Below are positions 6,746-25,184 of a stretch of 64,000 nt of DNA, one piece after another. The notes below the pieces were generated by a model. The model was not told where the DNA came from, searched no databases, and saw nothing but the letters and a program-made list of their open reading frames with translations. Source of the DNA: a virus. Lineage: Duplodnaviria; Caudoviricetes. The stretch covers positions 155,055 through 219,054 of IMG/VR virus record IMGVR_UViG_3300037851_000284; one strand, given 5' to 3'. Both the position numbers and the translations under genes were made by a program. Every line of letters starts with the position of its first letter. The first letter of the stretch is position 1.

Positions 6746-6747
6746 AT

Positions 6748-9700: not shown

Positions 9701-12700
9701 ACATTAATATTATATTTTTTATTAATTCCAACCAATTCTATATCTAATATTTCTCCATCAAAATCTTTTTCGTGTAATGCTAAAATTTTCTGATAAGTTC
9801 CATCGTTAGTTAATGAGTCTTTAGCGGTAATAATAGGAACTAATCCTTTAGATGTATCAATCAAAGTGTCTGGAGTAAAACAAGCTCTAGCAGGTAACGT
9901 TCTCTTTACGTTTGTATGAGTGCTAAGATATGCATCTCCAGGAAGTCTCAGTTCTCCCCTAAGAATCTTTTCGTATGGGTCTCCTTTTAAAAAGTGAGCT
10001 GGTAACCAGTTAGGCATCCTGTTTGGTATCGGATTTAAACCATACTGTCTATAATTTGGTTTTTCTATTAATCTTCTTAGTGGCTCGGTTAATATACCCA
10101 TACCGCCGAGGTTTAAATCTGTGTAGCTTCTACTAAAAGATGCTATTCTACCGGCTGTTTGTAATGTTGGTACTACAGTATTTTCTCCAAATATTCTATT
10201 AGTTATTGTTCCGGCCAAGAATCCTTTTAATCCGGCAAAGTTTTGTATATCATATAAGAAGTCTTCTGCTGCGGATTCAGACCAGTTCCTATTATTCATT
10301 AGGCTAATTTTTCCAAAATTATTAGCCATTCCTGCTGTAGTATTTCCAGGTCCTCCGTTGGGATTCATTAATGCCATTCCTTCTGGAATAGTAGGAGGTC
10401 TTATAGCAAAAGGATATGGGTCTCCTGGAGTTCCCCCTCTAACAGAAGAACCACCCTCTAGAAACTCTTGATGCATAGTCTTTGGAGGTTTTAATATTCT
10501 ACCAACCGTAGAAGATAAGATTTTGCCAACTCCAGGAAACTCGTCAAAAATACCTCCAGTAATCGGGTAAGGTCTAGTAAAATAATGTGAGTTGTGATAT
10601 GATGCTAAAATTCCAAGAAAAGAGTGAGACTTTTCTATTTTAACATCTATAACATTACCAGAAAATTTAGTAAAATTTATCTCTTTAATTTTAACATAAA
10701 TATAGTTATCATCAATAAAATACCATTTTGGAGACTTTATTTGTTTATTAATTTTAAATCCGATATATGATCTTAAATCATTAATATTATTACCATAAAC
10801 AAATAATAAATGTTGATCTGCTTCATTTTCTTTTTTAGATTTAATATATGAGTATGTTGGTATAAATCCAAGCGAAAATAAAATACTTCTTATTTGAAAA
10901 ATTAAATTTTGTGAAACAGAAATACAAGATATTGAACAATCATTAGATTGATCAGATCCGTTTCCTCTAAAATATCCAATTATTAACTCTTTTAATAAAA
11001 TAGAAGAAGAATAATATATTTCATCTGGGATGTGTTTATCATAACAAGAACTTCCAAAAGAACTTTTAAAAAATCTAGCTAATATCGAATTTGAACAAAT
11101 AATTCTAAATTTATTTCCATCTTGATGCGTTGTGCACTCTATCTTAAACAAAGATTTTATAATCGAAATTACATCATTATGATATTCTGTTTCTTTAGAA
11201 TGAAAATCAAAAACAACAGTTCTATCTCCACAGTATCCTTCCGCTAAATAATACCCAAATAATCTCCATAATAATCTATTTCTAATTATTTGTTTTGGAA
11301 TATTTTTATTATTATGTTTTGTTTGATTGTGAATACTAACATAACCAGAATTTGATTTTTCTTTAATTTTAATTCTAGGATAAACCAAAAAATCATTTTT
11401 TTCTAATTCATCTGCTCTAACCCATTCTGGTATATAATTTTTCTTATATTTACACCTTTTGCATTTTATCCAAGTTTTATTAAAACAAGGAGTTTTTCTA
11501 TTTTTTCTATGAAAACAAATAGAGGATTTAATTGCTAAATATCGGTGTTCTCTAGTAGTTTTATTATCAATATTAGATAAGGCAGTTTTAATAGAAATTA
11601 TATTTTCATCAATATGTTTAATCCATTTTTCTAAAACTTTTTGTTTTGTTCCATTGTGTGTTAAAATAGTATCACCAACATTTAAATCTTTAATTTGTAT
11701 AACTTCACTATTTTCTTTTAATATAAGAGTATCTTCTACTACACAACGCTCCATATAATACGGATCTAATATATCGCCAACGTTAAATCCAAGAAGCGGA
11801 AGAGGCTCGTGTATTAATCGTCTGAAAGCAGACCCATATAAAGTGTCAGTTTCTTTCCATCTTGATTTAGCTCTTACATACCAGTTTGGAGAATATCCTA
11901 CTACATTACTGCCTTCCCATGGAGTTCCTCCAAGCAACCAAGTGGGAGATTTCATTATAGGAACTTCTTTTCTCCCAGAGTATTCTTCTTTTAATTCCTC
12001 ATAAGATTTTGTAAGATTGGGAAGATATGGACTAGCCAGCCTATTAACTAATGCTCCACCAATAGCATATCTAGCAACTCTTAAAGGAGGAGATTTTGAC
12101 ATTAATCCGAGTACACTACCAAACATCATTCCAGGAATAGACGATTCAGAGAAAGGAGCTAACCCATGAAGATATTTCATGGTACCAGTAACACCAGTAA
12201 TATCTGCTACTCGTGCTCCAAATAAACGCGCTTTGGCTATATTATCAGCAGCTAGACCTGTTATTCCTTCTTCTAATGAGGTTTCATCAAATAGTGGGTT
12301 AGATGCAGTTATAGTATCAAGTATTCTATATGCTCCGAATACCGCAGCTGTTGTACCAACCACTCTTCCTATATATTTCAGATTTCCAGTCCACCCATGA
12401 TTTTCCATATAATATTTTTTAAATGGTAACCATTCCGCCATCATGTCCGTGGTTCGTTCGGTGGCTTTTAAGGCAAAGTCTCCAAGTATTTCTAGTCCTT
12501 TATCTGGAAGAGACACAAACGGATGAGGGTCAGTAGCAAACTTTATTCTACTAAAGGTTTTTTCTTGTGATAATTCTATGCTCGATTTAATTATATCATT
12601 ATTAGAAATAAAATTAATTAACTCGTTAGTAATATCCCATTTATTCTGCTTAGCTCTGTCTCTAACGTTATCTAGTATTAATTTTGTTCCATCAGAAGAA

Positions 12701-15207
12701 AAATCCAAACCTTTTATTAATTTATCTTCTCTTATAATAGGAGATAGCTTTGCGTGTAATAATAGAGCATCTTTTTCAGATCGGGTAATTAAATTTTTTC
12801 TATACCATTCTTCAGCTAGATTTAATAAAGGATGCGGTTTGTTTTTATCTGATTTTTTTAGAAAATCTTTATTAAAAACGTCCTCTATAACATTAGTTCT
12901 AGCTACATCATATGATGTCATTTCGGAGAAATGACCAAGCCGTTGTATTACATTATGATGTTTTGCTTTTTCAGGATATGCTTTAATATCTTCTATTGAT
13001 CTTATAACGTCTTTATTAGCAATTTCTCCTTTAGCGTGTAGAGCAGAAATTTTATCAATGAATGTTTGATCGTCCCATATATAAGATAACGGATTATCAT
13101 CTATATCAACTGCTTTAGCGGCTATCGACATAGCATCTCTAGACCTACCTACACGCGAAAGTATTTGGGAAGTGCGACCATAAATAGTATCAATAATAGA
13201 TAACGCTTTACCCATCATGCGAGTATCGTGTTTTCCAAGCGGGTCATCGAATATACTATTAAACTCTAATCTATAATCTTTAGAAGTAGAAAATCTAGAT
13301 TCTATTTTTCTAAATAATTTTTCAGCTGCTGCAGGCAAACCAAGTTTGGCTCTATCTAAAAAGTGTAGCCATTTATTATTTATTATTTTACCATGGTCTA
13401 GTTCTTCAATTAATTTATTATATTCTGCAGTACCAAGTTCGTCTTTTAAATGTTTTAAGCGATTAATAGTAATACTTTTTAATTCATGAGATTTATCATA
13501 TCCCGTTTTGTGTGAGAAATATAAGCTTCTATGAGTATCTACTTGGTGAACTGTAGCTCCGTCAAATATAGACCATTTTCCGCCTTTGGTATAAATATAT
13601 AATCTATTTCCATCTTGGTCTCCTACATCAGCAACGGAACTATAGTTTTTATCATTAAATCTAAATTCGGGTCTATTTCTGGTACCAAAGTAATCAGGAG
13701 AATCAGCAACCCAACGATGAGTATTAGTAAGGTCTGCTAAACTAAAAGTTGATTTAATAAAAGGAGCGCGAACTTGATATGTTAAGATAGGAGATAGTGC
13801 TTTTTTAACTAAGTGGATGGGGTCTAAGAAATTTAAATCAACTCTACCACCTATTATTCTAGGATTTTTCCAATCTTTATATATATTATGTCCTACTGTC
13901 ATATTAAGGATATTATCCATTAATTGATCAGCATCACTTTTTACATATTTTTGCTTAAGATTTCCTAAAACATCATTAATAACATCCTTTTTTAATACGT
14001 CTTTTAATAAAACAGGCTGAAGTACTTTACCGAATATTTTCTGTAAAATAGAGGTTCTGTCTTTATGTTTATGTATTTCTGAATAAAAAGTATCCTTTAA
14101 TTGAGCACCATCTAATGGTATCTTCTTAAGTCCTTTATATTCAGCCTCTTTTCTTGTCCATTCCTGAAATTCATAAAAAGTGTTTAATCCAGCATATTTA
14201 ACAGTAGAAGTAGGACTGGTCTTTGGTTTATTAAGGGCGGCTTTAGCTTCATCTACAGCCGTTTTAAGGAAGCCAAATACCTTTTGGGTACGCTGTCCAA
14301 ATGATATATTAGGTGCCTTCCTTGCCTCTCTAACGGCTTCTGGTAGGGTATATAGAGAATCTTGTAAACTTCTAAAGGCTTCACTTACGTTTTTACCAAA
14401 ATGTAGGCCTTTTTTAATAGAAGAATCGACAAACTCACTTTCGTGTTTAGTTAATAAACCTTGAAATCTATTATCTAATCTATTATCAGAGAATCTAGAT
14501 GCCCAATTTAATACCTTTTTACCGAATTCTCCTTGGAAAGTCTTTTGAACTGTTCTGAATCCTGCAGAACCAATAGCTCCAACTATAGGACCAGCCGCAC
14601 CAAAAGTCATACCGGCTATAGTACTATATCCCAACCACTTACCAAAATTAGATATCTTTCCAGGAACGTCATACCATTCCTTCTTCTCAAGTCCCATATC
14701 TCTAGTAAAACCAAGCATTTGGTCTACACCATAAGCTACAGCCATACCAGAAAGAACATTACGTTTCCATACTCCAGCAACAGATGCTATAAAAGTAGCA
14801 GGGTTTTTAAAAGCAGTTTGTAATCTTTTTATACCATATCCAGACTCACCTTTCATTCCCTCTAGAAGTTTTCTTCTTTCTTGACCGGCCTTGTAAACTG
14901 ATGATTCAGTAATTGTTCTTTTTATGGGAGAGGTATAAGCCTTTATATTTCTATAAGTTGTTATGGTTTTATCTGCTAAATTCTTTCTTATGCCTGTAGT
15001 GGAACCAGCAGACCAAGATTTTAAAGTAGATTTAGAGAAGCCTATTAAACGGCGAGTTACTATAGACCCAGCTATATTTAGAGCAAAAGCTGTCCCCATT
15101 AACTTTAGAGTGGAACCAATTTCCATTCTAGGAGCAACATTACTCTCGGGTTGATAATAATTTTCATTATCATTATCAAGAGGATTATAGTAAGTATTTT
15201 GAGCCAT
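6748..15207 (-). CDS. Giant tail/virion protein in the tape-measure position, with two inteins and a C-terminal PD-(D/E)xK nuclease domain
   Basis: 2819 aa, directly after the tail chaperone-like genes. Long Gly/Ala-rich amphipathic stretches, two Hint+LAGLIDADG inserts, and nuclease motifs GTAFHESVQ...GHVDAII...LEIKT...SQLNFYL (~8230-8580). About 2026 aa after removing the inteins. Confidence 0.7.
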   Translation of the reverse strand: MAQNTYYNPLDNDNENYYQPESNVAPRMEIGSTLKLMGTAFALNIAGSIVTRRLIGFSKSTLKSWSAGSTTGIRKNLADKTITTYRNIKAYTSPIKRTITESSVYKAGQERRKLLEGMKGESGYGIKRLQTAFKNPATFIASVAGVWKRNVLSGMAVAYGVDQMLGFTRDMGLEKKEWYDVPGKISNFGKWLGYSTIAGMTFGAAGPIVGAIGSAGFRTVQKTFQGEFGKKVLNWASRFSDNRLDNRFQGLLTKHESEFVDSSIKKGLHFGKNVSEAFRSLQDSLYTLPEAVREARKAPNISFGQRTQKVFGFLKTAVDEAKAALNKPKTSPTSTVKYAGLNTFYEFQEWTRKEAEYKGLKKIPLDGAQLKDTFYSEIHKHKDRTSILQKIFGKVLQPVLLKDVLKKDVINDVLGNLKQKYVKSDADQLMDNILNMTVGHNIYKDWKNPRIIGGRVDLNFLDPIHLVKKALSPILTYQVRAPFIKSTFSLADLTNTHRWVADSPDYFGTRNRPEFRFNDKNYSSVADVGDQDGNRLYIYTKGGKWSIFDGATVHQVDTHRSLYFSHKTGYDKSHELKSITINRLKHLKDELGTAEYNKLIEELDHGKIINNKWLHFLDRAKLGLPAAAEKLFRKIESRFSTSKDYRLEFNSIFDDPLGKHDTRMMGKALSIIDTIYGRTSQILSRVGRSRDAMSIAAKAVDIDDNPLSYIWDDQTFIDKISALHAKGEIANKDVIRSIEDIKAYPEKAKHHNVIQRLGHFSEMTSYDVARTNVIEDVFNKDFLKKSDKNKPHPLLNLAEEWYRKNLITRSEKDALLLHAKLSPIIREDKLIKGLDFSSDGTKLILDNVRDRAKQNKWDITNELINFISNNDIIKSSIELSQEKTFSRIKFATDPHPFVSLPDKGLEILGDFALKATERTTDMMAEWLPFKKYYMENHGWTGNLKYIGRVVGTTAAVFGAYRILDTITASNPLFDETSLEEGITGLAADNIAKARLFGARVADITGVTGTMKYLHGLAPFSESSIPGMMFGSVLGLMSKSPPLRVARYAIGGALVNRLASPYLPNLTKSYEELKEEYSGRKEVPIMKSPTWLLGGTPWEGSNVVGYSPNWYVRAKSRWKETDTLYGSAFRRLIHEPLPLLGFNVGDILDPYYMERCVVEDTLILKENSEVIQIKDLNVGDTILTHNGTKQKVLEKWIKHIDENIISIKTALSNIDNKTTREHRYLAIKSSICFHRKNRKTPCFNKTWIKCKRCKYKKNYIPEWVRADELEKNDFLVYPRIKIKEKSNSGYVSIHNQTKHNNKNIPKQIIRNRLLWRLFGYYLAEGYCGDRTVVFDFHSKETEYHNDVISIIKSLFKIECTTHQDGNKFRIICSNSILARFFKSSFGSSCYDKHIPDEIYYSSSILLKELIIGYFRGNGSDQSNDCSISCISVSQNLIFQIRSILFSLGFIPTYSYIKSKKENEADQHLLFVYGNNINDLRSYIGFKINKQIKSPKWYFIDDNYIYVKIKEINFTKFSGNVIDVKIEKSHSFLGILASYHNSHYFTRPYPITGGIFDEFPGVGKILSSTVGRILKPPKTMHQEFLEGGSSVRGGTPGDPYPFAIRPPTIPEGMALMNPNGGPGNTTAGMANNFGKISLMNNRNWSESAAEDFLYDIQNFAGLKGFLAGTITNRIFGENTVVPTLQTAGRIASFSRSYTDLNLGGMGILTEPLRRLIEKPNYRQYGLNPIPNRMPNWLPAHFLKGDPYEKILRGELRLPGDAYLSTHTNVKRTLPARACFTPDTLIDTSKGLVPIITAKDSLTNDGTYQKILALHEKDFDGEILDIELVGINKKYNINVTDNHDIFSIKTNKCKYYPNEPKSKRCCFECKNKNALKYCKESDYSITENKAKDLESGDYLVTPIIKITNNIKSIDLFELLKIYNKYTFKKNGVYSNGIKRYDRYLNITSELMKLIGFYLAEGSLSSSQTTFSFHSNEIEYHTFIKNITEKLFHSSTTILITNNSARVTSNSTILRDILESLCGKAKNKHLPKEIYNIGNKNINALLSGYFAGDGWYIKKSNKKSGSEIGVATCIENLSFSIFKLLCSLGFRPGLCYRKGKDVQFIKEDRIISSTQRYDIRLYDNQANVLSNIFGFDKNNEQLNVLIYKGFIPYKIKSISKKKYIGKVYDLTIENNHNYCVPFALVHNSMIGGTTQNIVQYFTGLIPPTQLESYNILEKGTAFHESVQRTLASEGMLIQAEAFVQDVKNDITGHVDAIIRDGYGGRGRRALEIKTINDEAFAVLDAPKSEHYSQLNFYLRMLNMKRGTLLYVNRENPSQVKTFDIPYSKSRWEEDVKKLYEARKIAATMMEEGVADTLGFSYSWVDRLKILADVAPNSLEYKEAKKIVDTQIKYGVLNKDDLEKYHSALKIKQARIRSYELYPNRFKGKVLHPENTANIQSINEDIKAAAEYSLPERMIGALWERFTNTNTFIVNKLFAAKDPLEHYKMTRLYGKEYKPWDEPIRGWLEPYSRGLAAKTDPFAGALSYGMGGLILGGPLGAIVGVGAGAIYGTGHGLYRFMTNSTYIPASIKEKREIMSYFDAAKFERNDMLAQLSTGLTQQEYLQQKEATLTAFNQGGKGATVANLFRATTPFEKPYIESFLNTRDPKKREEILKYIPDDLANALKHQWSKNDSKDATKNYIQRSSEEIAAGRPKYAFDRSVLDPSVPLDDIKLKTVQEQGFDQFEFGLGWNEQMLRLQESNMDIKAANIEKLNNYSPPSPNINQAGIRGAINNLFSKDGIKSSVQVYINNNSDEHNQIDILIRRDRSRTIFNALNRREKYGL
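8659..9882 (-). mobile_element. Intein 2 (408 aa, LAGLIDADG) in the 2819-aa protein
   Basis: Junctions LPARA|CFTPDTLI ... FALVHN|SMIGG. Block B VTDNHDIF; LAGLIDADG blocks LIGFYLAEG and LLSGYFAGDG. Confidence 0.93.
10591..11745 (-). mobile_element. Intein 1 (385 aa, LAGLIDADG) in the 2819-aa protein
   Basis: Junctions YYMER|CVVEDTLI ... ILASYHN|SHYF. Block B TTREHRYL; LAGLIDADG-like blocks LFGYYLAEG and IIGYFRGNG (second has N in place of D). Confidence 0.93.
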
Positions 15208-16178: not shown

Positions 16179-18488
16179 TTATTCGGACCAAATATTCTTA
16201 GGATATTGAGTCTCTTTAGCAGCTTGATAATCCTGATTTAGTTTATAAATATTTGGAGTACTTTCAGGTGTAGTATAGTTTTTATTAGTTTGCATTTTTA
16301 ACGTTTCTACCATCTCGTCCCTAGGTAAATTTTTTATTTTAGGAGGGACATAAGGAGGATTAGGTTTTACTTCGTTTCCATAGTTATACCCATATGGAGT
16401 AGGTGTTGTGTTTCTATATCCTATTCCTAGATTTCTTCTTATAGTTTTTTCAAACATTACAGGAGAATAAAACTTTTTCTCCGATTGTAAGTGATAGTGG
16501 TCGTTTATATAATCTACGCGTGTACCAATTTCAATCTTTTGTCCCACTTTTAAATTTTTCGTATATGAACTAGGAATATGAGCGTATCTTACTACACCTT
16601 GATTAGTTCTAATGCTAAATGATTCTTTCCCTATTGAATAAACTTCTCCCCCAAAAGCAGCAGGAGCATAACCTGCTGTTTTTGTTATATTATTCTTTTT
16701 TATTATATTACTTATATCTGCGAAAACATAATTACTTTTTCCAGCACTCAATGGATGTTCATCAGCCCTAGTAAAGTGAGTAATAGTTGTTCCAGTAATA
16801 GCAACTCCAGTTTCTGAACCATCGCTGGTCATATCTGATGCTTTTGGAACAATATTCTTTTTCTCTGTATTGGCTATTTGTTCTACTTGTTTTAAAGCTT
16901 CAGCTTCATTTCTAGCCTCTGCTGAGTTTTCTTCAAATATAGAAAGAGAATAATTTGGTGCGGGTTCTTGTTTAGTTTCTACTTCTTTAATCTTATTTTT
17001 TTCTCTTTCTTTAGGAGTTAAAGATTCCTGCTTAGGAGCGCTAGGTGGTTTTCCCCAGAATAAATCTTCTCTAGATAATAGGTTGGTTGCTTTAAATCCT
17101 GTTCTGGTAGGAGATATTACTTTAAATGTGTATGTATCTGGGATTCTTTGTTCTAATATCATGGTAATTTTTTCATCAGGAATAGTAGTATTACCATTTA
17201 AATTACCAAAAGTAGTAGCGACTATGAGTTGAGAATACCTTGATAGGTTTACAGGATCTGTATCAGTTACTTTAGCATTTATTACATTCTCAACAAAAGA
17301 ACTTAATTGGTCTATAAATGGAGTGACTTTATTATAAGAAAAAGATAATTTACTAATAACTTTATTCAAAGGTTTCCAGCCATTGTTACGTAAGAAAGAT
17401 GCCTCAGTAGCAACAGTAACATAAGTTCCTTGTTTATCATCTAGGAAGTTCTCAAGTTTTTCTATATCTTCATATTTTGATAATTTACTATCTGTTCTGA
17501 CAGAAAGTTTAACTGGATTTAATCTTATTACACTATTTGAGCTTGTAATACTATCATTTATATCCCTAGCTATAAAAGTGTACATTTCTCCAATGGGGTC
17601 TCCAGTTGGGGCAACTATTAAACTATTACTGGTAAAATGAACATCGTTTAATATTATTACTGTATGTTCCGCCCTATAATCATTAATATCTCCAAAGGTT
17701 AACATTATATTTAATACATTAGCATAACTTCTACCTTTAGCTGTTATTATACCACCGTTAGTTTCATGATAATCAAACTCGTCGGCTCTTTTAATCTTAT
17801 TCAAAAGAGTAAGCTGCTTACCATTCTGGTCTCCCCATATACTATCTTCTAATATTTCGGCAAAATCCTCAAAATCTCTATTCTCACGATCAAAACCCAT
17901 ATCTTGACTCAAACTGGTAGAAATCTTTTTACTAGATAATATTTGTTCTATAGTTTGACCTTGTCGTATAAAGTTTGGTGTTCCATCAAGATTATAAACC
18001 GCTTCAACTTTAGTACCATCTTCGTTTATAGTAGTTAATCCAGGAACGAACTCTTGTTTATCTTGCAGCTCATCAGAATAAGATTTTAACTTTCTCTGAA
18101 CTGCTTCAGCTTTATTTTTCCTTTGAGAATCTATAAGAGCTTGAATTATATTTAAATAACCAGTTTCTTTAAAGGCAATAGCTAGATTACCTTCTACTAT
18201 TACCTGTCCCTTAGCTATAGCATCAAAGTTCTGAGAAGCATACCCATAAATAGGAACTTTAGATTGAGTAACATTATATTGGATAGTAATTATATCATCC
18301 ACCCAGACATCACCAAAAAATATCTTACAGTCAGTTCCTGCAAAATAATCATACGGATAAGTTTGATAGTTATCTCTAAATGCCGTTGCTGAAGTAAATG
18401 GGTCTTTAGATGAACCGGAAAAACTCTTAGCCTGTTTTTCCTGCATTGCGGTCTTAGTCTGCCTTAATTGATTTTGTAAGTCTACCAT
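16179..18488 (-). CDS. Tail-tube-like/baseplate hub protein with C-terminal M23-like peptidase region
   Basis: N-terminus YFAGTDCKIFF...TQSKVPIYGYAS...GQVIVEGNL parallels the tube protein. C-terminus AAFGGEV...RYAHI...KVGQKI...DHYHLQ fits the M23/LytM pattern. Confidence 0.6.
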   Translation of the reverse strand: MVDLQNQLRQTKTAMQEKQAKSFSGSSKDPFTSATAFRDNYQTYPYDYFAGTDCKIFFGDVWVDDIITIQYNVTQSKVPIYGYASQNFDAIAKGQVIVEGNLAIAFKETGYLNIIQALIDSQRKNKAEAVQRKLKSYSDELQDKQEFVPGLTTINEDGTKVEAVYNLDGTPNFIRQGQTIEQILSSKKISTSLSQDMGFDRENRDFEDFAEILEDSIWGDQNGKQLTLLNKIKRADEFDYHETNGGIITAKGRSYANVLNIMLTFGDINDYRAEHTVIILNDVHFTSNSLIVAPTGDPIGEMYTFIARDINDSITSSNSVIRLNPVKLSVRTDSKLSKYEDIEKLENFLDDKQGTYVTVATEASFLRNNGWKPLNKVISKLSFSYNKVTPFIDQLSSFVENVINAKVTDTDPVNLSRYSQLIVATTFGNLNGNTTIPDEKITMILEQRIPDTYTFKVISPTRTGFKATNLLSREDLFWGKPPSAPKQESLTPKEREKNKIKEVETKQEPAPNYSLSIFEENSAEARNEAEALKQVEQIANTEKKNIVPKASDMTSDGSETGVAITGTTITHFTRADEHPLSAGKSNYVFADISNIIKKNNITKTAGYAPAAFGGEVYSIGKESFSIRTNQGVVRYAHIPSSYTKNLKVGQKIEIGTRVDYINDHYHLQSEKKFYSPVMFEKTIRRNLGIGYRNTTPTPYGYNYGNEVKPNPPYVPPKIKNLPRDEMVETLKMQTNKNYTTPESTPNIYKLNQDYQAAKETQYPKNIWSE

Positions 18489-19579
18489 TCTCTAGTAGTT
18501 GTTCCTATTGGTGTGTTTACAGCATGACTTATATAATCATTTACACTGGTAGCAACCCCATTATCAAGACTTCCCTGAGCATTCCAACCAGTCAAAGTTC
18601 TTTGTTTAATCTCTATTTGGTTATTAATGGATTCTAATTCTTTATATAATCCTGTTAGTATTTTTAATTGTTTATCTTTCTCTCTCTTTAAATCTTCTCT
18701 TGAAACATAATCTTTACCATTAGCTAATCTATTTAGCCATTCCGATGCATAAAAAGTAAACGCTCCAGCCACTGCTCTTTTATTAGTTTCTTTATCTATC
18801 TCAGCTATAATAGTTTCACAATCAGTAATATCTTGTTGAACTTTCTTTTGATAATCCATAAGAGCAGAAAATTGATTATCAATAAATAATCCTTTAACTT
18901 GTCTTTCAAACATCATATCTTTAAATTCCGCAATATCTTTATAAGCTATCATCTGGTCCATATCTTTAGCCACATATTGCATAGTACATTCACTATATAA
19001 ATCGTTAATACTATGGACTTGACCCTCATCTAGAAATTCTACACCATATAGTCTGGTAATTGAACGATGACCATATTCATTTTGAAATAATAGTATTAAA
19101 TCAATAGGAGGTAGTTGGTCGGGTAAAGGAGAAGTGGTCCTATCCGAAGGATTCTTAATATAATTTAATTCTTTTATAACATCATAAAGTGGGGCTCTAT
19201 CAAACACGATAAATATCATACTTCCCGCAATTGTTCTTGGACCAGCAGTATATCCTTTTGCGTGGGAACGACCTAAAACCCTTACAGCTGATTTTTCCCT
19301 ATGAATAGAGTGAGATATAGTTTCTAGATTACCTAGAACTATAAGTTTATTATTAAGCTGAGCTATTACTGTACAGTCGCTGCCACTATAAGAAGTATTA
19401 GATTTACTAAAATCTATTAAAGGGTCAGCATCAAAAGGATTAGCCTCGGTAGGACCAAGGGACCCTCCAAGATAAGGTTGGGTAGAACCTAACAAATTAG
19501 TTTTAACTTGTTGGACCACGTCTTTAACAAATGGGTCTTTTTTTAATTTATTAACTTGTTTATCTAACCACGTTGACAT
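18482..19579 (-). CDS. Tail tube paralogue (tube initiator-like) with C-terminal coiled coil
   Basis: SYSGSDC...IHREKSAVRVLG...IAGSMIFIVFDR...PDQLPPIDL...NEYG...YGVEFLDEG...MQYVAK aligns by eye with the spliced tube (REKAPIYVLG, HAGSLIFTNFDR, SDQLPPFTI, NEYG, GVELINEG, MTFVAR). Confidence 0.75.
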   Translation of the reverse strand: MSTWLDKQVNKLKKDPFVKDVVQQVKTNLLGSTQPYLGGSLGPTEANPFDADPLIDFSKSNTSYSGSDCTVIAQLNNKLIVLGNLETISHSIHREKSAVRVLGRSHAKGYTAGPRTIAGSMIFIVFDRAPLYDVIKELNYIKNPSDRTTSPLPDQLPPIDLILLFQNEYGHRSITRLYGVEFLDEGQVHSINDLYSECTMQYVAKDMDQMIAYKDIAEFKDMMFERQVKGLFIDNQFSALMDYQKKVQQDITDCETIIAEIDKETNKRAVAGAFTFYASEWLNRLANGKDYVSREDLKREKDKQLKILTGLYKELESINNQIEIKQRTLTGWNAQGSLDNGVATSVNDYISHAVNTPIGTTTREW

Positions 19580-19590
19580 AATTTTTAGGT

Positions 19591-19620
19591 ATAAAGCCCT
19601 TGTTTTATTAAGGGCTTTAT
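19591..19620 (-). terminator. Terminator-like inverted repeat after tail tube exon 3
   Basis: ATAAAGCCCT-10 nt-AGGGCTTTAT perfect 10-bp stem just after the stop at 19626. Confidence 0.65.
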
Positions 19621-19625
19621 TTTAA

Positions 19626-22351
19626 TTAAGCATTAAAAGGCAAACTTTGTGCAAGTTGAGCCTGTTGTATGGCGGTTAAGTTATTCATCTGAGTAAGAAC
19701 ATCAGCCTTAACATTAATATTTCCGCCTAGTTGAGAAATAGGTCTCCATCCAAGTATTGCGCGAGCTACGAATGTCCAATTATGTTAGCTTAATATTACT
19801 ATTAAGATCGGACTGTGTCTTCACCTTTTGTTTACAAGAATGGCAGATTCTGCTTTTATCGTGCAATAGAGAATAAATATTATTACATATATCACACTTT
19901 CTTCTACCATAATTTTCTTGATTTCTATTTTTTAACCAATTTTCAAAAACTTCTTTTTTACGAGAAAGATAAAAAGCGTTATTATCATACATATACCAAA
20001 ATATAGATAGGCTTTCTAAGTGACTATATTGTAATCTATAACATTCTTCGTGATTATAAATTTTAGGTATTATTCCAAGCTCTTCTTTTAGTATATTACC
20101 AAAAGATTGTAAATTTTCTTTTAATTTATTTACTATTTGAACCTGCAACCAAGACCCGCTTTTATCGTTTCTTAAACTTATACATCCGTCTCCATCAAAG
20201 TAACCCCTAGTAAAATACTTAAAATATTTCTTATCTATAGTAGGAAAAATATTCATGTATGTTTTATTAGGAATAATTCCTAAAGATAAAAAATTTTGTA
20301 CTAAATTGTTTGATGTTTTTTGAATATAAAAATATTTATTTTCATATTGTGAGACAGAAGTGTCTAATTTTAGAATTTTTTGAATCCATTCTATTAAATC
20401 CTTATCTTTTGATTGCCATCTTATTCTTAAAGTGGATTTATTATAATCTACACAACCATCAGCATAAGTGTAACCAAGCAAATAATAGAAATCTTCTTTT
20501 GTGCAATTAAGGGTACTACATACAGTCTCTGAGGGGAGTTTACCGTCATTTTGACATTCTCTTCCCTGCGAATTATCCATTTGGATTTTCTCGCATATAG
20601 TAGTATTTTTCATTAAAAGTTTCCTTTTAAGCAGACAACGATTCTATCTGAGTTTCACTGACAATGTCGTCGATCGATACTCCAGCTCCTTCATTAATTA
20701 ACTCAACTCCTAGAAGATGCATAGCAGAAATATTACCATACTCATTCATAGAGGTTAGTGTAATTGTAAAGGGCGGAAGTTGATCGGAATAGTTTGCGAT
20801 ACTTTTTTGTGATCCAAGTGCTCCCAAACTATCTAGATGTTCTTTATGTTCTTTTCCCAATAACAAACTTCTTCCACCAGCAGGAATATCTGTAGATTTA
20901 GCATAATACTTGTATCTATCAGACGGTCCAGAATTACTGGCGCTATAGGTTCCTTGCATGATATCATACAAGGCATGTCTATCGAAGTTTGTAAAGATCA
21001 AGGATCCAGCATGGCCTCTTTTGCCTCTGCCAAACGAAACAGCGTCAACAGATCCTAATACATAAATTGGCATTTGTAAATTAACCTTTGTTAATTAACA
21101 ATGGACTATACCATCACCCATTTCTGGGGTCCAGCGTTTAGTCTCTGCAAGCGAATCTGATTTCTCAGTCTTGCTCTCAGGCTCCTTGTTAGATGAACTA
21201 ACAACTTGGCTGATTTGAGCTGGATTAATTTTTCCAGGAGTTTCCCCACTGGCAAGCGCCAACTTTCTCGTAAGATTAAAACAATTAGAATAATACATAA
21301 AATTAAAAATCTTTTTAATATCCTCTTTCGAAGAATATCTAATTCTATAACAATTAACAGATCCTTTATTGTGAATAGATGGATTTTTTTTGCTACATCC
21401 GATCTTTTCCAATTTTTTTTCTAAATCACTTATAAAATTAATATTTCCAAGAAATTGATATGTCTTTTTTGAATTATCTTGATAAAAAGAACCGTCTCCA
21501 TCAAAATAACCACGAATTAGATCACGTAAAAATTCTTCTGGAACTTCCGGTAATCTTGCTCTAGCACTTTTATTTGGAATGACTCCTTTTATAATTATAT
21601 CATTTACCATTTTTTTATTATGGATATATAAAGCGCAAGAATTGCGTGTTTTTTTAATACAAATAGGATTTTCACAATCCATTAATTTCTTAATATTAAA
21701 TAAATGATTATAATCTTTCATTGATAATTCACACGAAATTCTATTTAGATGTGGTTCCACGCATCCATCTGCAAGAAAAAAACCAATCACATAAGCTGAT
21801 TCCTTTGTCCAATTTTCAAAAAAATTGAAATTAATATTATAATTTCCGCATTTTCTTTGATATCCCAATTTTCTTGCTTGAACTTTAATTGCTTCTCTTG
21901 TTCTATTTGGTAATAATTTCCAAATATTTGGGTTACAAGAATAATTATCTTTAATAATTTTATTCTCTTTTGCAGTCCATAGTTCTCTAGAATCTAATTG
22001 TAATTTACTAGCCTTATGTCCTATTGCGTTATAAGACAAATTTAATTTATTTGCTATTTCCTTATATGATAATTTATTATAATTATCTTTAAGAAAATCA
22101 ATTTTATATTTATCCCATTTTCTTGGAGAACAATTTCGTGTTATTTTTTCCATATTATTCTAACTCTTTTAAAATTAATGAGTTATCGCTTTTTCTCTTG
22201 TAGTAGAGAAACTTATACCATTCAAATTTCCGATTAGAATACCGTCAATGGTAGCGACGATATCTGTACCAGCAGAGGAATTATAAGATTGTCTTATACC
22301 CTCGGTTGCAGCTTCAACTGTTTGATAGTTGGCTGGGTTATTACTACCCAT
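19626..22351 (-). CDS. Major tail tube protein encoded in three exons (22351-22187, 21070-20646, 19776-19626); 246 aa after splicing
   Basis: GGAGG RBS then ATG at 22351. Exons sum to 165+425+151 = 741 nt and join in frame: ...TTREKA|PIYVLG...VSETQ(AT|G)TFVARAILG...FNA*. Follows the sheath gene and is collinear with the 365-aa paralogue. Confidence 0.88.
19777..20645 (-). mobile_element. Group I intron (869 nt) in the tail tube gene, endonuclease looping out at P8
   Basis: 5' exon ends in U with P1 CAGAU/GUCUG (U.G pair at the splice site; 20650-20646 / 20636-20632). P4 UGCGA/UCGCA, P5 AUCCA/UGGAU, R element CUCAGAGACUGUAUG (20533-20519), S element AAGACACAGUCC (19821-19810), P9 CUUAAUA/UAUUAAG, terminal G at 19777. 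Confidence 0.92.
19780..20613 (-). CDS. Intron-encoded LAGLIDADG homing endonuclease
   Basis: Motifs YLLGYTYADG and FTRGYFDGDG; C-terminal CDIC...CHSC zinc-finger pattern; the ORF overlaps the intron core. Confidence 0.9.
   Translation of the reverse strand: MKNTTICEKIQMDNSQGRECQNDGKLPSETVCSTLNCTKEDFYYLLGYTYADGCVDYNKSTLRIRWQSKDKDLIEWIQKILKLDTSVSQYENKYFYIQKTSNNLVQNFLSLGIIPNKTYMNIFPTIDKKYFKYFTRGYFDGDGCISLRNDKSGSWLQVQIVNKLKENLQSFGNILKEELGIIPKIYNHEECYRLQYSHLESLSIFWYMYDNNAFYLSRKKEVFENWLKNRNQENYGRRKCDICNNIYSLLHDKSRICHSCKQKVKTQSDLNSNIKLT
21071..22186 (-). mobile_element. Group I intron (~1.1 kb) in the tail tube gene; 5' boundary uncertain (22186 or 22180)
   Basis: Core lies at the 3' end: P3 GGCGCUU/AAACGCU, Q-like AAAUCAGCC, R CAGAGACUAAACG (21147-21135), S GAUGGUAUAGUCC (21115-21103), terminal G at 21071 before CCA ATT TAT (PIY). 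No clean U.G P1 was found. Confidence 0.82.
21095..22153 (-). CDS. Intron-encoded LAGLIDADG homing endonuclease with two N-terminal Myb/HTH-like repeats
   Basis: Motifs YVIGFFLADG and LIRGYFDGDG; two repeats of the form W...(L/I)KDNY...AI..(K/Q)A.KL. The last ~60 codons overlap the intron catalytic core. Confidence 0.9.
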   Translation of the reverse strand: MEKITRNCSPRKWDKYKIDFLKDNYNKLSYKEIANKLNLSYNAIGHKASKLQLDSRELWTAKENKIIKDNYSCNPNIWKLLPNRTREAIKVQARKLGYQRKCGNYNINFNFFENWTKESAYVIGFFLADGCVEPHLNRISCELSMKDYNHLFNIKKLMDCENPICIKKTRNSCALYIHNKKMVNDIIIKGVIPNKSARARLPEVPEEFLRDLIRGYFDGDGSFYQDNSKKTYQFLGNINFISDLEKKLEKIGCSKKNPSIHNKGSVNCYRIRYSSKEDIKKIFNFMYYSNCFNLTRKLALASGETPGKINPAQISQVVSSSNKEPESKTEKSDSLAETKRWTPEMGDGIVHC

Positions 22352-22374
22352 GGATTCCTCCAAGGTTAAAATAA

Positions 22375-22402
22375 TAGGCGAGGAGATATTTCTCCCCGCC
22401 TA
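22375..22402 (-). terminator. Hairpin between the sheath and tube genes
   Basis: TAGGCGGGGAGA-aata-TCTCCTCGCCTA followed by TTATTTT on the minus strand. Confidence 0.6.
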
Positions 22403-22418
22403 GATATCCAACTAGCGA

Positions 22419-25184
22419 TTATCTAGTTGGGAGATTCTTACGTAGTTTTACTGTGGTTCTAATCTTTTTAATCGTAAAGATAGGAACCAGTATTAAATCT
22501 ACTTCTATGATTCCCAGTACTTGCTGGTTAGGAGTAGATGAGATGGAGAAATCAAAACCTCTAAGACCAGACATACTCATAAGAGTATTAGATATCAACT
22601 GTTCTAGAGATGCTCTGACTTCAACACTATTTGGCTGACCAATAAAGGTTTCTGCTATAGCATAAACTCTATCAGAAGCCGCAGCTGTAATACTATACGT
22701 ACTCCAGTTTACGAAATCGCTTCCAATAGGCGCAGCAGTTACGTCCTCTATAATAACTGGGTCTTTACCAATCCTAGTTTTCATAGTTACGTATCTTGCC
22801 GCATTTAGCGCCTCGTACTGTGATGTACTCAACGAATATCTAAGAGCTTGAATACCGTTAATAGATTTATTCGTTGGAGATATATCATAAGGCATTGATG
22901 CTATCATACCAGCATAGGCAGCCTGACCATTAGCAACATAAGGACGACCTCTACCGACATTCAAGAATACTGGTTCAAAAGCAGCAATAGATATAAATTT
23001 ACTCTGGATTAGAGACATTATATTTGCGGTTCTGTTTGGATCTTTTAGGTCTTTAACAGTTGCTTTTGTTACCCATTTATCTTTATGGGCTTGAGTTACT
23101 TCGTCCATCGGTGTTACAGCTAGTATTGCGTGAGGCTGAATATTATTTATAGATAGATCTTCCATAAAATCATTAAGATCTGAATAATAATCTGCTGGAA
23201 TTGTTTCCTTTAGACCAGTAATAGGATTAAATCTTTCAGAGAGTTCATCTATAAATGCGCTCATTGGTACCCATATATTAGCTCCATAGTTACGAAGTCT
23301 ATCATAACATGTTACCAATTCTTCTTTACGTTGACGAGGAGTTAGAACGTTTCCGTTAGTACCTCCACTCAGAGATTTGGCAGCAGTAGTAATATTTGGG
23401 AATGTTGGAAGATAAGTATACCTAAATCTTATATAGGTCTTTGCTGTGTTTGTAAGTACACCAGCATTAGGTCCAGGTAATAGTTTAGGGTCATCAAACA
23501 TTATCTTTCCATTAGCGGCATCACTGACTGTTAAATTACTTCCAAGTTCATATTCTGTTCTTGTTCCATAATTTACTGTCATATTAAATGCTGGAGGAGT
23601 ATTAAATATAATCTCCTGACCTCTTACAAAGTAATCACTTAATGTAGTAGATGATGTTAATGCGTTAAGATTTTCCTTCTCAGTTAAAAATCCTTTAACT
23701 GTATTAGCTGTGATTCTGACATAAACTCCTTCTCTAATAACGTTTCCTGAAGTTACTATGCTTTGCATAATAGGACTATTTGCAAAAGAATCCGGTCCAA
23801 TTTTAAATATTGCCACACCAGATGTATATTCAGATAAATAAATACCTGATATACCATTATAAGGAAGACTCTGCCAGAAATCATTAGGATCATCTGTAAG
23901 ACAGACTTGAACATCAATTTTACCAGAAGGTCTTACTGAAACTCCATCGATAGTTCTAGTAGCGATACCAGAACAGGTAGCTCTAGCTCGTCCAGAGAAA
24001 CTACTCGTTCCGTTTCCAGAATAGTTGGCATATGTAGTAGTAATTAAACCGCTTATATATTTATCAGCTATTCCACTATTAACTAATTCTTCGTTATCGC
24101 AAATACATAGAGGAACAGTTATTCTTAGCGAGTTTGTTGCTACACCAGCACTAAAATAACCACCAGATCTGGTAGGTCCGCCTTCACCAGTTCCACCATC
24201 CATAAAAGCAGCATTAAGATTATAAATATATTCAGATTTTACAGTTCCCGACGGGTCTTGTATATATTCTGAGTCGCTATTATAATCGTAAAGAGCTTGG
24301 ATAGTGTTCCAGCAAGCGGGAGCCTTACCGTCTAGAGGCATGTGTTTTAGTTTATTTACAGCTTTACCAGCACATTGAATCTGTTCATATTCTGAAATAC
24401 TTACCGATTCAACGGTGTCGATTTCTATAATATCATTAGCAGCAGAAGTAATTCCGCGAATAGGAGTAGGAATCATATAACCGGTAGTTGTTATATAACC
24501 ATTAGCTATTAGTTCTCCTAGATCTACTTCAACGAATTCCGTGGTGTTTGTTACACCAGTACTATTACCACTTATACATACTTCATAGTCTGCTAGAAGT
24601 CCTGAATAGGTGGCCTTTAAAATAGTATTTAAATTTGAATCAGCATTTATTGCGTCTACCAGTTCAGCAACATTATGTGCAACGACGTTAGGATTTGTTG
24701 GTTTTTCAGTATCAATACTAAATGTAGAAGTAGTTCCAGTTTTTGGATTATAAATAGCAACATCTCTATTTTCATCATAACTGATACTAACACCATTATA
24801 TATGGAACCAGGATTTAAAGCTTCTAGTTTCATAGAAGTAGTGTTTCCGCCATATTCGGTATCTTCACCGCTGCCAGTAGTTTCTTCTATTTCTAACTTA
24901 GCAGTTTCGCCATTACCAAGACGAACTCCTACCACTGTAGGGTGCCCACCTTGTACATCCCAACATTCGAAGATTCCACGAACTAGATCTCCAGCACCAA
25001 GCCTACCCCATACATATTCAGCATCTTCAGGTTTTTCAATCTGAATAGGCTCGTACATAGGACCATCTTCAGCTGTTCCTAATATTACGACCCGCTTATT
25101 TCTTTGTATAGGATTGGGTGATACGTTGAGACCATAATCTTGGATATATGTAGCTGGAGAAGGTAGATTAATTTCCTTAGCCAT
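22419..25184 (-). CDS. Tail sheath protein (enlarged, with central insertion)
   Basis: 921 aa. N-terminal VVILGTAEDGPMYEPIQI and WGRLGAGDLVRG; C-terminal NGQAAYAG...PTNKSI...LNAARYVT...GIIEVDLILVP typical of contractile sheaths. Confidence 0.9.
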   Translation of the reverse strand: MAKEINLPSPATYIQDYGLNVSPNPIQRNKRVVILGTAEDGPMYEPIQIEKPEDAEYVWGRLGAGDLVRGIFECWDVQGGHPTVVGVRLGNGETAKLEIEETTGSGEDTEYGGNTTSMKLEALNPGSIYNGVSISYDENRDVAIYNPKTGTTSTFSIDTEKPTNPNVVAHNVAELVDAINADSNLNTILKATYSGLLADYEVCISGNSTGVTNTTEFVEVDLGELIANGYITTTGYMIPTPIRGITSAANDIIEIDTVESVSISEYEQIQCAGKAVNKLKHMPLDGKAPACWNTIQALYDYNSDSEYIQDPSGTVKSEYIYNLNAAFMDGGTGEGGPTRSGGYFSAGVATNSLRITVPLCICDNEELVNSGIADKYISGLITTTYANYSGNGTSSFSGRARATCSGIATRTIDGVSVRPSGKIDVQVCLTDDPNDFWQSLPYNGISGIYLSEYTSGVAIFKIGPDSFANSPIMQSIVTSGNVIREGVYVRITANTVKGFLTEKENLNALTSSTTLSDYFVRGQEIIFNTPPAFNMTVNYGTRTEYELGSNLTVSDAANGKIMFDDPKLLPGPNAGVLTNTAKTYIRFRYTYLPTFPNITTAAKSLSGGTNGNVLTPRQRKEELVTCYDRLRNYGANIWVPMSAFIDELSERFNPITGLKETIPADYYSDLNDFMEDLSINNIQPHAILAVTPMDEVTQAHKDKWVTKATVKDLKDPNRTANIMSLIQSKFISIAAFEPVFLNVGRGRPYVANGQAAYAGMIASMPYDISPTNKSINGIQALRYSLSTSQYEALNAARYVTMKTRIGKDPVIIEDVTAAPIGSDFVNWSTYSITAAASDRVYAIAETFIGQPNSVEVRASLEQLISNTLMSMSGLRGFDFSISSTPNQQVLGIIEVDLILVPIFTIKKIRTTVKLRKNLPTR

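What the first reader, a model, noticed from the sequence alone, without database searches (positions are those of the whole stretch)
19626..22351. Major tail tube gene interrupted by two self-splicing group I introns
Seen: the track's 62-aa and 148-aa ORFs plus an unlisted 49-codon piece are exons. Joined, they give 741 nt in frame, collinear with the uninterrupted paralogue next door. Both intervening sequences have group I R/S (P7) elements, a terminal G and LAGLIDADG ORFs with both motifs intact; intron 2 has a textbook U.G P1. Known: phage group I introns are mostly reported in DNA/nucleotide-metabolism genes (td, nrdB, nrdD, DNA polymerase), with fewer in late genes. Two in one of the most abundant structural genes makes tail assembly depend on double splicing, and automated annotation would miss the gene.
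Basis: partly seen in the sequence, partly recalled or inferred. Interest (0 to 1): 0.82.

Follow-up and report, generated by a model that had tools for sequence, protein, structure and literature searches.

The report
Phage tail-tube gene with two introns
The tail-tube gene of an uncultured 219-kb freshwater phage is cut into three pieces by two mobile group I introns, each carrying a homing-endonuclease gene; this is a real but already known kind of element, with one unusual splice-site detail.

Summary
Confirmed. On the minus strand, exons 22351-22187, 21070-20646 and 19776-19626 join to 741 nt (246 aa). The product matches more than 100 uninterrupted ~240-aa homologues exactly across both joins. 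It is the homologue of the tail-tube protein gp140 of Bacillus phage 0305phi8-36 and lies directly after the sheath gene.

Both inserts (1116 and 869 nt) are group I introns with intact double-motif LAGLIDADG genes. The window gives only partial RF00028 matches (26 and 41 bits, below the 50-bit gathering score) because the ORFs split the cores. Relatives carry the same introns at the same sites. Eight members of family 1 and four of family 2 show many compensatory pair changes. An ORF-less member of family 2 scores 72 bits.

No RNA data were listed, so splicing is inferred. Precedents exist: Twort orf142 (tail tube, three introns), a Bacillus cereus-group prophage tube gene, and earlier finds of this scan in other genomes. 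This is therefore a new member of a known kind.

Two extras:
- Family 1 never has the canonical U.G pair at its 5' splice site. The pair covaries as G:C, A:U or U:A.
- The gene is an intron hot spot. One relative has five group I introns in 243 codons.

The parts
22187..22351 (-). Exon 1 of the tail-tube gene (55 codons, ATG at 22351, GGAGG Shine-Dalgarno a few bases upstream)
   Evidence: It matches residues 1-55 of intronless homologues and PHROG 9206 positions 14-54.
21071..22186 (-). Intron 1, 1116 nt, group I. The exon-1 frame stops 3 codons inside it. The last base is G (omega-G, 21071).
21095..22153 (-). Intron-1 homing-endonuclease gene, 352 aa. N-terminal helix-turn-helix repeats are followed by a double-motif LAGLIDADG domain. 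The ORF starts in loop L1 and reads through the whole ribozyme core to P9.
   Evidence: PF14528 39.2 bits and phrog_4645 E 1e-49. Thirteen orthologues of 55-71% identity exist; each of the eight looked up (DNA held for seven) lies after the sheath gene between tube-gene pieces.
21254..21262 (-). Intron-1 internal guide sequence UUGG|CGCUU. CGCUU pairs with the exon-1 end AAGCG (P1). UUGG pairs with the exon-2 start CCAA (P10).
   Evidence: The pairing covaries in 8 family members.
21088..21252 (-). Intron-1 ribozyme core. P2 21252-21234 (GAAA loop). P3 21224-21219 with 21135-21130. P5 21204-21186. P6/P6a 21176-21149. P7 21143-21139 with 21108-21104. P8 21128-21117 (GAAA loop). P9 21101-21088.
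   Evidence: RF00028 26.3 bits. RNAalifold on 6 family members gives 43 pairs, 17 with compensatory double changes. Coordinates.
20646..21070 (-). Exon 2 (425 nt, residues 56-197 with the first two bases of the Met197 codon)
   Evidence: PHROG 9206 positions 55-154, E 2e-23.
19777..20645 (-). Intron 2, 869 nt, group I. The exon-2 frame stops 6 codons inside it. The last base is G (19777).
20504..20650 (-). Intron-2 5' half of the ribozyme. P1 20650-20644 with the guide sequence 20638-20632 (U.G at the cut). P2 20630-20613 (GAAA loop). P3 5' strand 20605-20600. P4 20595-20590 with 20572-20567. P5 20586-20575. P6/P6a 20566-20534. P7 5' strand 20527-20523. P3 3' strand 20519-20514. P8 5' strand 20512-20504.
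   Evidence: RF00028 40.8 bits, E 2.1e-9. Coordinates. Covariation.
19780..20613 (-). Intron-2 homing-endonuclease gene, 277 aa. It has a double-motif LAGLIDADG domain and a C-terminal CxxC...CxxC motif. The body lies in loop L8. The frame begins just after P2 and ends 3 nt before the 3' splice site.
   Evidence: PF14528 60.6 bits and phrog_4645 E 2.5e-42. It is 29% identical to the intron-1 enzyme.
19777..19830 (-). Intron-2 3' part of the ribozyme. P8 3' strand 19830-19824. P7 3' strand 19815-19811. P9 hairpin 19806-19789. Omega-G 19777.
   Evidence: This stretch is nearly identical in the ORF-less relatives L003, L075 and L076.
19626..19776 (-). Exon 3 (last base of the Met197 codon, 49 codons, stop at 19628-19626). 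It has no in-frame start codon of its own.
   Evidence: It matches residues 198-246 of intronless homologues.
22375..22402 (-). Terminator-like hairpin between the sheath gene and the tube gene
19591..19620 (.). Palindromic terminator-like hairpin just after exon 3
22419..25184 (-). Context: tail sheath gene (921 aa), immediately upstream
   Evidence: PHROG tail-sheath families 16991, 279 and 10244.
18482..19579 (-). Context: uninterrupted tail-tube paralogue (365 aa), immediately downstream
   Evidence: phrog_9206 E 3.4e-31. The order sheath, tube, tube paralogue is the same as 0305phi8-36 gp139, gp140, gp141.

Best explanation
The gene after the tail sheath gene encodes the major tail-tube protein of a ~219-kb myovirus-like phage distantly related to Bacillus phage 0305phi8-36. 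Two mobile group I introns interrupt it.

The primary transcript must fold into two ribozymes that remove 1116 and 869 nt and join three exons into a 741-nt reading frame.

- Intron 1 sits between the Ala55 and Pro56 codons. Its guide sequence UUGGCGCUU pairs across both exon ends. Its endonuclease ORF starts in the P1 loop, and its compact core lies at the 3' end.
- Intron 2 sits inside the Met197 codon (AU|G). It has a canonical U.G P1, and its endonuclease ORF is inserted in the P8 loop.

Each intron encodes a double-motif LAGLIDADG homing endonuclease. This enzyme presumably cuts intronless alleles of the very conserved target sites and spreads the intron during co-infection.

Shown here: exon structure, homology, ribozyme secondary structure with covariation, intact endonuclease genes, and presence/absence polymorphism among relatives. 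Inferred: splicing itself, endonuclease activity and homing.
For: - Spliced product. It is collinear with and up to 88% identical (over exon 2) to more than 100 uninterrupted homologues. Both junction peptides are reproduced. A PHROG profile runs continuously across join 1.
- Purifying selection on all three exons. Against the intronless L023, 209 of 243 residues are identical, and 123 of those use a different codon. Exon 3 has no start codon of its own.
- RF00028 matches. 40.8 bits for intron 2 and 26.3 bits for intron 1. The ORF-less homologue of intron 2 at the identical site in L003 scores 72.4 bits, above the gathering score.
- Intron-1 family. The same site is occupied in WIN, L068, L073-L076, L082 and L083. 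RNAalifold on six of them recovers P2, P3, P5, P6, P6a, P8 and P10, with 17 of 43 pairs showing compensatory double changes. P1 pairs covary with the exon.
- Intron-2 family. WIN, L003, L075 and L076 give 13 of 43 pairs with compensatory changes. P7 changes from GACUG/CAGUC to GACUU/AAGUC.
- Endonucleases. PF14528 is above its cut-off, and both motifs are present in each ORF.
- Polymorphism. There are 43 distinct intronless alleles at site 1 and 40 at site 2, against intron-bearing ones.
- Tube identity. The best hit in 0305phi8-36 is gp140, a virion protein confirmed by mass spectrometry and annotated tail tube, with the same gene order. A homologue in KLEB27-3 is annotated tail tube protein. 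In the structure search of a model of the intronless homologue P0002, nearly all of the 50 best chains are tail tube, Hcp or related tail and injection-system proteins (Z 3.6-5.5).
Against: - No RNA evidence. No RNA run holds the stretch, so neither splicing nor its efficiency is shown.
- Neither intron reaches Rfam's gathering score in the window.
- Intron 1 has G, not U, before the 5' splice site. This pair is called conserved and required in the Tetrahymena ribozyme (PMC1891724).
- The fold evidence for 'tube' rests on a low-confidence model (pLDDT 61) with modest Z scores.
Confidence: 0.9

Rival explanations
1. Both inserts are group I introns, but intron 1 is not an efficient self-splicer. 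Lacking the U.G wobble at its 5' splice site, it would depend on a protein helper (for example its own LAGLIDADG protein acting as a maturase) or would splice slowly, which would throttle tube production.
For: The pair at the cut is G:C in the window. In all 8 family members it is never U.G. Replacing U.G by C-G in Tetrahymena raises P1 undocking about 80-fold (PMC1891724).
Against: Eight diverged phages keep this intron in an essential, strongly conserved gene, with an intact core and covarying P1. Splicing must therefore be good enough in vivo. Nothing here tests any maturase role.
Confidence: 0.15
2. The interrupted gene is a dead or dying pseudogene broken by endonuclease-gene insertions, and the uninterrupted paralogue next door builds the tube.
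For: An intact paralogue lies immediately downstream. No expression data exist.
Against: All three exons are free of stops and frameshifts. They show abundant synonymous but few amino-acid changes against intronless alleles. The ribozyme helices are maintained by compensatory changes. 0305phi8-36 has both gp140 (tail tube) and gp141 (tube paralogue) in its virion, so the paralogue is not a replacement.
Confidence: 0.03
3. The gene is split by free-standing endonuclease genes, and the tube protein is made as separate polypeptides that assemble after translation, as in some T4-like split genes. Alternatively, the inserts are inteins.
For: Exon 2 happens to be preceded by an in-frame ATG made of the last three intron bases. 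Inteins with LAGLIDADG domains do occur in this genome and in the paralogue of a relative.
Against: Exon 3 has no in-frame start codon. The exon frames hit stops 3 and 6 codons into the inserts, and insert 2 is not a multiple of three, so these are not inteins. No Hint or intein domain was found in the two ORFs. Conserved, covarying ribozyme structure would be unexplained.
Confidence: 0.02

Closest known systems
Staphylococcus phage Twort orf142 (tail-tube gene) with three group I introns (Landthaler & Shub 1999, as cited in PMC11878797)
   Same: The host gene is a myovirus tail-tube gene. It is interrupted by several group I introns, so virion assembly depends on multiple splicing events.
   Different: The phage lineage is unrelated (a freshwater relative of 0305phi8-36). 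Both window introns carry LAGLIDADG genes. Intron 1 lacks the U.G pair. Splicing is untested here, whereas Twort's was shown experimentally.
Group I intron in the tail-tube gene of Bacillus weihenstephanensis KBAB4 / B. cereus B4264 prophages (PMC2504315)
   Same: A group I intron lies in a phage tail-tube gene. The exon frame meets a stop codon within the first bases of the intron, a feature that paper describes as typical.
   Different: That case has a single intron in a temperate phage. It is a different tube protein family.
Multi-intron DNA polymerase and terminase genes of Bastillevirinae (PMC11878797)
   Same: Two or three group I introns sit in one conserved phage gene. Endonuclease ORFs in long loops break Rfam matches into partial hits, exactly as here.
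   Different: Those lie in DNA-metabolism or packaging genes and mostly carry HNH enzymes. That paper found none in structural genes of the subfamily.
Group I introns with a C.G pair at the 5' splice site (Hur & Waring 1995, title as listed in the reference list of PMC6468297; paper itself not held)
   Same: They are natural exceptions to the U.G rule at the cleavage site.
   Different: In the family found here the position is not fixed as C.G. It takes G:C, A:U, U:A and C.A in different members, tracking the third base of an Ala codon.

Membership tests
Group I intron (Rfam RF00028) | Score at or above the family's gathering threshold (50 bits) | tested here: not met
   The window gives 0 hits at gathering and the whole genome gives 0. 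Narrow searches give 26.3 bits for intron 1 and 40.8 bits for intron 2. The shortfall is explained by the ORF insertions: the ORF-less homologue of intron 2 in L003 scores 72.4 bits.
Group I intron (Rfam RF00028) | Conserved core helices P3-P8, including the P3/P7 pseudoknot, supported by covariation | tested here: met
   Family 1: 17 of 43 predicted pairs have compensatory double changes, and P3 has 4 of 6 pairs with double changes. Family 2: 13 of 43 pairs, and P7 changes G-C to U-A.
Group I intron (Rfam RF00028) | P1 formed by the 5' exon end and an internal guide sequence | tested here: met
   Intron 1: AAGCG pairs with CGCUU, and positions -1 and -4 covary in relatives. Intron 2: CAGAU pairs with GUCUG.
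Group I intron (Rfam RF00028) | U.G wobble pair at the 5' cleavage site | tested here: inconclusive
   The result is split between the two introns. Intron 2 meets it (U20646 with G). Intron 1 does not: the pair is G:C in the window, and G:C, A:U, U:A or C.A in 8 family members.
Group I intron (Rfam RF00028) | Terminal guanosine (omega-G) before the 3' splice site | tested here: met
   G at 21071 and at 19777. It is invariant in all family members.
Group I intron (Rfam RF00028) | Guanosine-dependent splicing that yields ligated exons | not testable with these tools
   No RNA run was listed. DNA contigs show no intron-free form.
LAGLIDADG homing endonuclease | LAGLIDADG domain above the Pfam cut-off, with two motifs each ending in an acidic residue | tested here: met
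   PF14528 scores 39.2 and 60.6 bits against a cut-off of 22.5. The motifs FFLADGCV and GYFDGDGSF (ORF 1), and GYTYADGCV and GYFDGDGCI (ORF 2), were read.
LAGLIDADG homing endonuclease | Site-specific cleavage of the intronless allele, and homing | not testable with these tools
   Only indirect support exists: the same sites are empty in 43 and 40 distinct alleles and occupied in others.
Myovirus tail-tube protein (0305phi8-36 gp140 family) | Sequence homology to a virion-verified tube protein, and position directly after the sheath gene | tested here: met
   tblastn hits fall in gp140 of 0305phi8-36, the 'tail tube protein' of KLEB27-3 and a virion structural protein of WH1. The sheath gene is upstream.
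Myovirus tail-tube protein (0305phi8-36 gp140 family) | Tail-tube / Hcp fold | tested here: inconclusive
   The model of homologue P0002 has pLDDT 61. Foldseek gives no match with E <= 0.001. VIA gives Z 3.6-5.5, but nearly all of the top 50 chains are tube, Hcp or related tail and injection-system proteins.

The most novel reading that the evidence does not exclude
Intron 1 may belong to a group I intron family that has given up the near-universal U.G wobble at the 5' cleavage site.

In eight diverged members the last exon base is G, A, U or C. This is the free third position of an Ala codon. The guide-sequence partner changes with it (C, U, A, and A for C), so the cut is made next to an ordinary Watson-Crick pair.

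If these ribozymes splice efficiently, they select the 5' splice site by something other than the wobble receptor. That something could be, for example, the contiguous P1/P10 pairing across both exon ends.

The same phage lineage also shows extreme intron packing. One relative carries five group I introns in a 243-codon tube gene. Other relatives have a 14-nt micro-exon.
Probability: 0.55. Interest if true: 0.6.

Novelty: new member of a known kind. Interest (0 to 1): 0.42.

Why it matters
- Annotation. Gene callers split this major virion gene into fragments (58, 148 and 0 aa called), so the tube protein is missed in this phage and many of its relatives.
- Biology. It adds a well-documented case of homing-endonuclease introns colonising the most conserved stretches of a late structural gene. 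The lineage has at least nine insertion sites and up to five introns per gene.
- RNA enzymology. The intron-1 family offers a natural test of how essential the U.G wobble at the 5' splice site really is.

Tried and rejected
- Rfam at gathering on the window, a broad E-value search of 19500-22450 and RF00028 on the whole genome found no intron match. Only narrow searches found the cores.
- Megablast against phage records gave no match.
- A PDB sequence-profile search gave nothing relevant. Foldseek against PDB gave only weak rows.
- RNA evidence: none was listed by either run search. Laying contigs of four freshwater DNA runs showed the intron-bearing allele in X1 and X2 and fragments in X3 and X4. 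There were no joints, so no intron-free variant was seen.
- Exact-pattern scans for more family members found only L003's contig for intron 2. They found nothing for intron 1 in viral or genome contigs.
- My Nei-Gojobori dN/dS script gave saturated or undefined dS and possibly a wrong CDS start. I discarded it in favour of the simple count.
- Other splice positions for intron 1 were considered. A U-ending 5' exon (after 22185) breaks the frame or inserts a residue, and the U is not conserved in relatives. Shifting both sites one base upstream (GC|G...U|G) gives the same mRNA in the window, but it needs a non-G last intron base. It would also make all intron-bearing alleles use GCG, which is rare (2 of 43) in intronless alleles. 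It is judged less likely, not excluded.
- Intein and group II readings were rejected (in-frame stops, no Hint or reverse-transcriptase domains, RF00028 hits).
- The Hur & Waring 1995 paper could not be read.
- The intron subgroup was not assigned. Both introns lack P7.1/P7.2 between P3' and P8, so they do not look like the IA type, but no classifier was available.
Full report
**Setting.** The window is the last 64 kb of a single 219,054-bp virus record. CheckV estimates the record at 95% complete. The DNA is found in freshwater metagenome runs. All genes around the finding lie on the minus strand. The order is tail sheath (22419-25184, PHROG tail-sheath families), the split gene, a 365-aa paralogue (18482-19579), and a 769-aa protein whose N-terminus weakly matches the same PHROG family.

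**Observation.**
- Exons 22351-22187, 21070-20646 and 19776-19626 measure 165, 425 and 151 nt. They join to 741 nt and 246 codons.
- A search with exon 2 found 627 relatives. Most are about 240 aa and uninterrupted, and they are up to 88% identical.
- Their sequences read TREKAPIYV(M/L)GS and ETQMTFVAR straight through the two joins.
- PHROG 9206 aligns at positions 14-54 in exon 1 and 55-154 in exon 2.
- Against the intronless allele L023, 209 of 243 aligned residues are identical, and 123 of those are encoded by a different codon. This pattern holds in each exon separately: 26/47, 71/122 and 26/40. All three pieces are therefore under purifying selection as one protein.
- Exon 3 has no in-frame start codon.

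**What the gene is.**
- tblastn places exon 2 in gp140 of Bacillus phage 0305phi8-36, a 'tail tube protein' of KLEB27-3 and a virion structural protein of WH1.
- In the 0305phi8-36 record, gp139 is the sheath. gp140 is a major structural protein found in virions by mass spectrometry and noted as tail tube. gp141 is noted as a tail-tube paralogue. This is the same order as in the window.
- An AlphaFold model of the intronless homologue P0002 is poor (pLDDT 61), and Foldseek gives no significant match.
- The exhaustive VIA search returns, almost exclusively, tail-tube, Hcp and contractile-injection-system tube chains (Z 3.6-5.5).
- I accept 'major tail tube' on homology and synteny. The fold evidence is consistent but weak.

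**Intron 2 (20645-19777, 869 nt).**
- A narrow Rfam search gives RF00028 at 40.8 bits, E 2.1e-9. The match covers P1 to the 5' strand of P7.
- P1 is CAGAU|AG paired with UUGUCUG, with U.G at the cut. P2 has a GAAA loop. P7 is GACUG/CAGUC. A P9 hairpin and a terminal G follow.
- The 277-aa LAGLIDADG ORF lies in the P8 loop. Its frame starts just after P2 and stops 3 nt before the 3' splice site.
- Relatives carry the same intron at the identical position, inside the Met codon (AU|G), without any ORF. These are L003/L071 (RF00028 72.4 bits, above gathering), L075 and L076.
- Aligning these with the window's intron minus its L8 insert, RNAalifold recovers P1, P3, P4, P6, P6a, P8 and P9. Thirteen of 43 pairs show compensatory double changes, and P7 changes G-C to U-A in L003.

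**Intron 1 (22186-21071, 1116 nt).**
- RF00028 matches the 3' part at 26.3 bits, E 5.6e-5.
- The 352-aa ORF (HTH repeats plus a double LAGLIDADG domain) has 13 orthologues of 55-71% identity. Every one whose contig I could inspect sits after the sheath gene, between tube-gene pieces. In the seven whose DNA could be read, the insert lies between the codons for Ala55 and Pro56.
- The alignment of six cores (A2) folds into P2, P3, P5, P6, P6a, P8 and P10. Seventeen of 43 pairs have compensatory double changes.
- The guide sequence UUGG|CGCUU (21262-21254) is complementary to the ligated exons AAGCG|CCAA. The ORF therefore begins in the P1 loop and reads through the whole core.

**The odd detail.**
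- The base before the 5' splice site of intron 1 is G, not U. It pairs with C.
- Across eight family members the pair is G:C (2), A:U (4), U:A (1) and C.A (1). It is never U.G. Position -4 also covaries.
- The terminal G is invariant.
- The one-base-shifted alternative would need a non-G last intron base. It would also force GCG in every intron-bearing allele, although intronless alleles use A 19, T 17, C 5 and G 2 at that position. I therefore favour the splice site as given, without excluding the alternative.
- The U.G pair is described as conserved and required in Tetrahymena. Replacing it with C-G raises P1 undocking about 80-fold (PMC1891724).
- A precedent for C.G exists by title only (Hur & Waring 1995, seen; the paper is not held).

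**Wider picture.**
- Mapping exons in relatives shows insertions after residues 53, 55, 57, 61, 71-73, 80, 155, 192 and 197.
- L003 (a 92.8-kb contig) has five RF00028 hits above gathering inside one 243-codon tube gene. Its internal exons are about 24, 36 and 21 nt.
- L075 and L076 have a 14-nt exon between two introns.
- The sample is biased, because the scans used peptide patterns that span two of the sites. Most alleles found are intronless.

**Limits.** No RNA run was listed, so splicing is inferred. DNA contigs from four runs show the intron-bearing allele (≥99% identical in X2) and no intron-free joint.

**Comparison and verdict.**
- Group I introns in tail-tube genes are established. 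Twort orf142 has three introns and encodes the tail tube (PMC11878797). A Bacillus cereus-group prophage tail-tube gene has one. The same paper notes that early in-frame stops inside the intron are typical (PMC2504315). The window shows that feature too.
- This scan has already recorded such introns in other genomes.
- The finding is real and well supported, but it is a new member of a known kind.
- The non-wobble cleavage site of the intron-1 family and the intron density of this gene family are the parts worth a specialist's attention.

Noticed in passing
window 6748-15207 (-): A 2819-aa ORF contains intein sequence in frame: Intein_splicing 65.9 bits (two stretches), a LAGLIDADG_3 domain near residues 1407-1483, and a weak Hint_2 match near 1155-1203. 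The genome search found two LAGLIDADG hits in this frame. This is probably one or two inteins in a giant virion or tail protein.
   Followed up: partly
window 20846-20854: There is a 9-nt tandem duplication (KEHKEH against KEH) in exon 2. It is present in the window and absent from the near-identical contig L001 and from run X2. A C/T difference at 22037 goes with it.
   Followed up: partly
L003 2988-4543 (IMGVR_UViG_3300035208_001008; same contig as L070, GCA_023229385.1): Five ORF-less group I introns, all above the RF00028 gathering score, lie in one 243-codon tail-tube gene with internal exons of about 24, 36 and 21 nt. A free-standing Endonuclease_7 gene lies between the sheath and tube genes. 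A frame change near the 3' end of the tube gene is also seen in an independent assembly (L071).
   Followed up: partly
L075 about 5490-6612 and L076 about 5894-7019: Two adjacent introns are separated by a 14-nt exon (ACCGAAACGCAGAT). The first carries a LAGLIDADG gene. The second is the ORF-less relative of the window's intron 2.
   Followed up: partly
L004 2886-4000: Two introns flank an exon of about 27-30 nt encoding KRGHAGSLI. The first carries a 259-aa LAGLIDADG ORF. The second is ORF-less (RF00028 66.7 bits).
   Followed up: partly
L010 5051-6250: The tube paralogue of this relative carries a 400-aa in-frame insert that starts with Cys and holds a LAGLIDADG-like motif. It is probably an intein. 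A further relative has a 765-aa paralogue with Hint, Intein_splicing and LAGLIDADG hits.
   Followed up: no
window 16179-18488 (-): The N-terminus of this 769-aa protein weakly matches the same PHROG family as the tube gene (phrog_9206, E 7.4e-5). It is a possible third tube-like paralogue, as with gp142 in the 0305phi8-36 gene order.
   Followed up: no
L072 1408-2418: A different group I intron lies 8 nt downstream of the window's site 1, inside the Ile57 codon. It has a canonical U.G P1 (CUCCCAU with GUGGGAG) and an unrelated 278-aa LAGLIDADG gene.
   Followed up: partly
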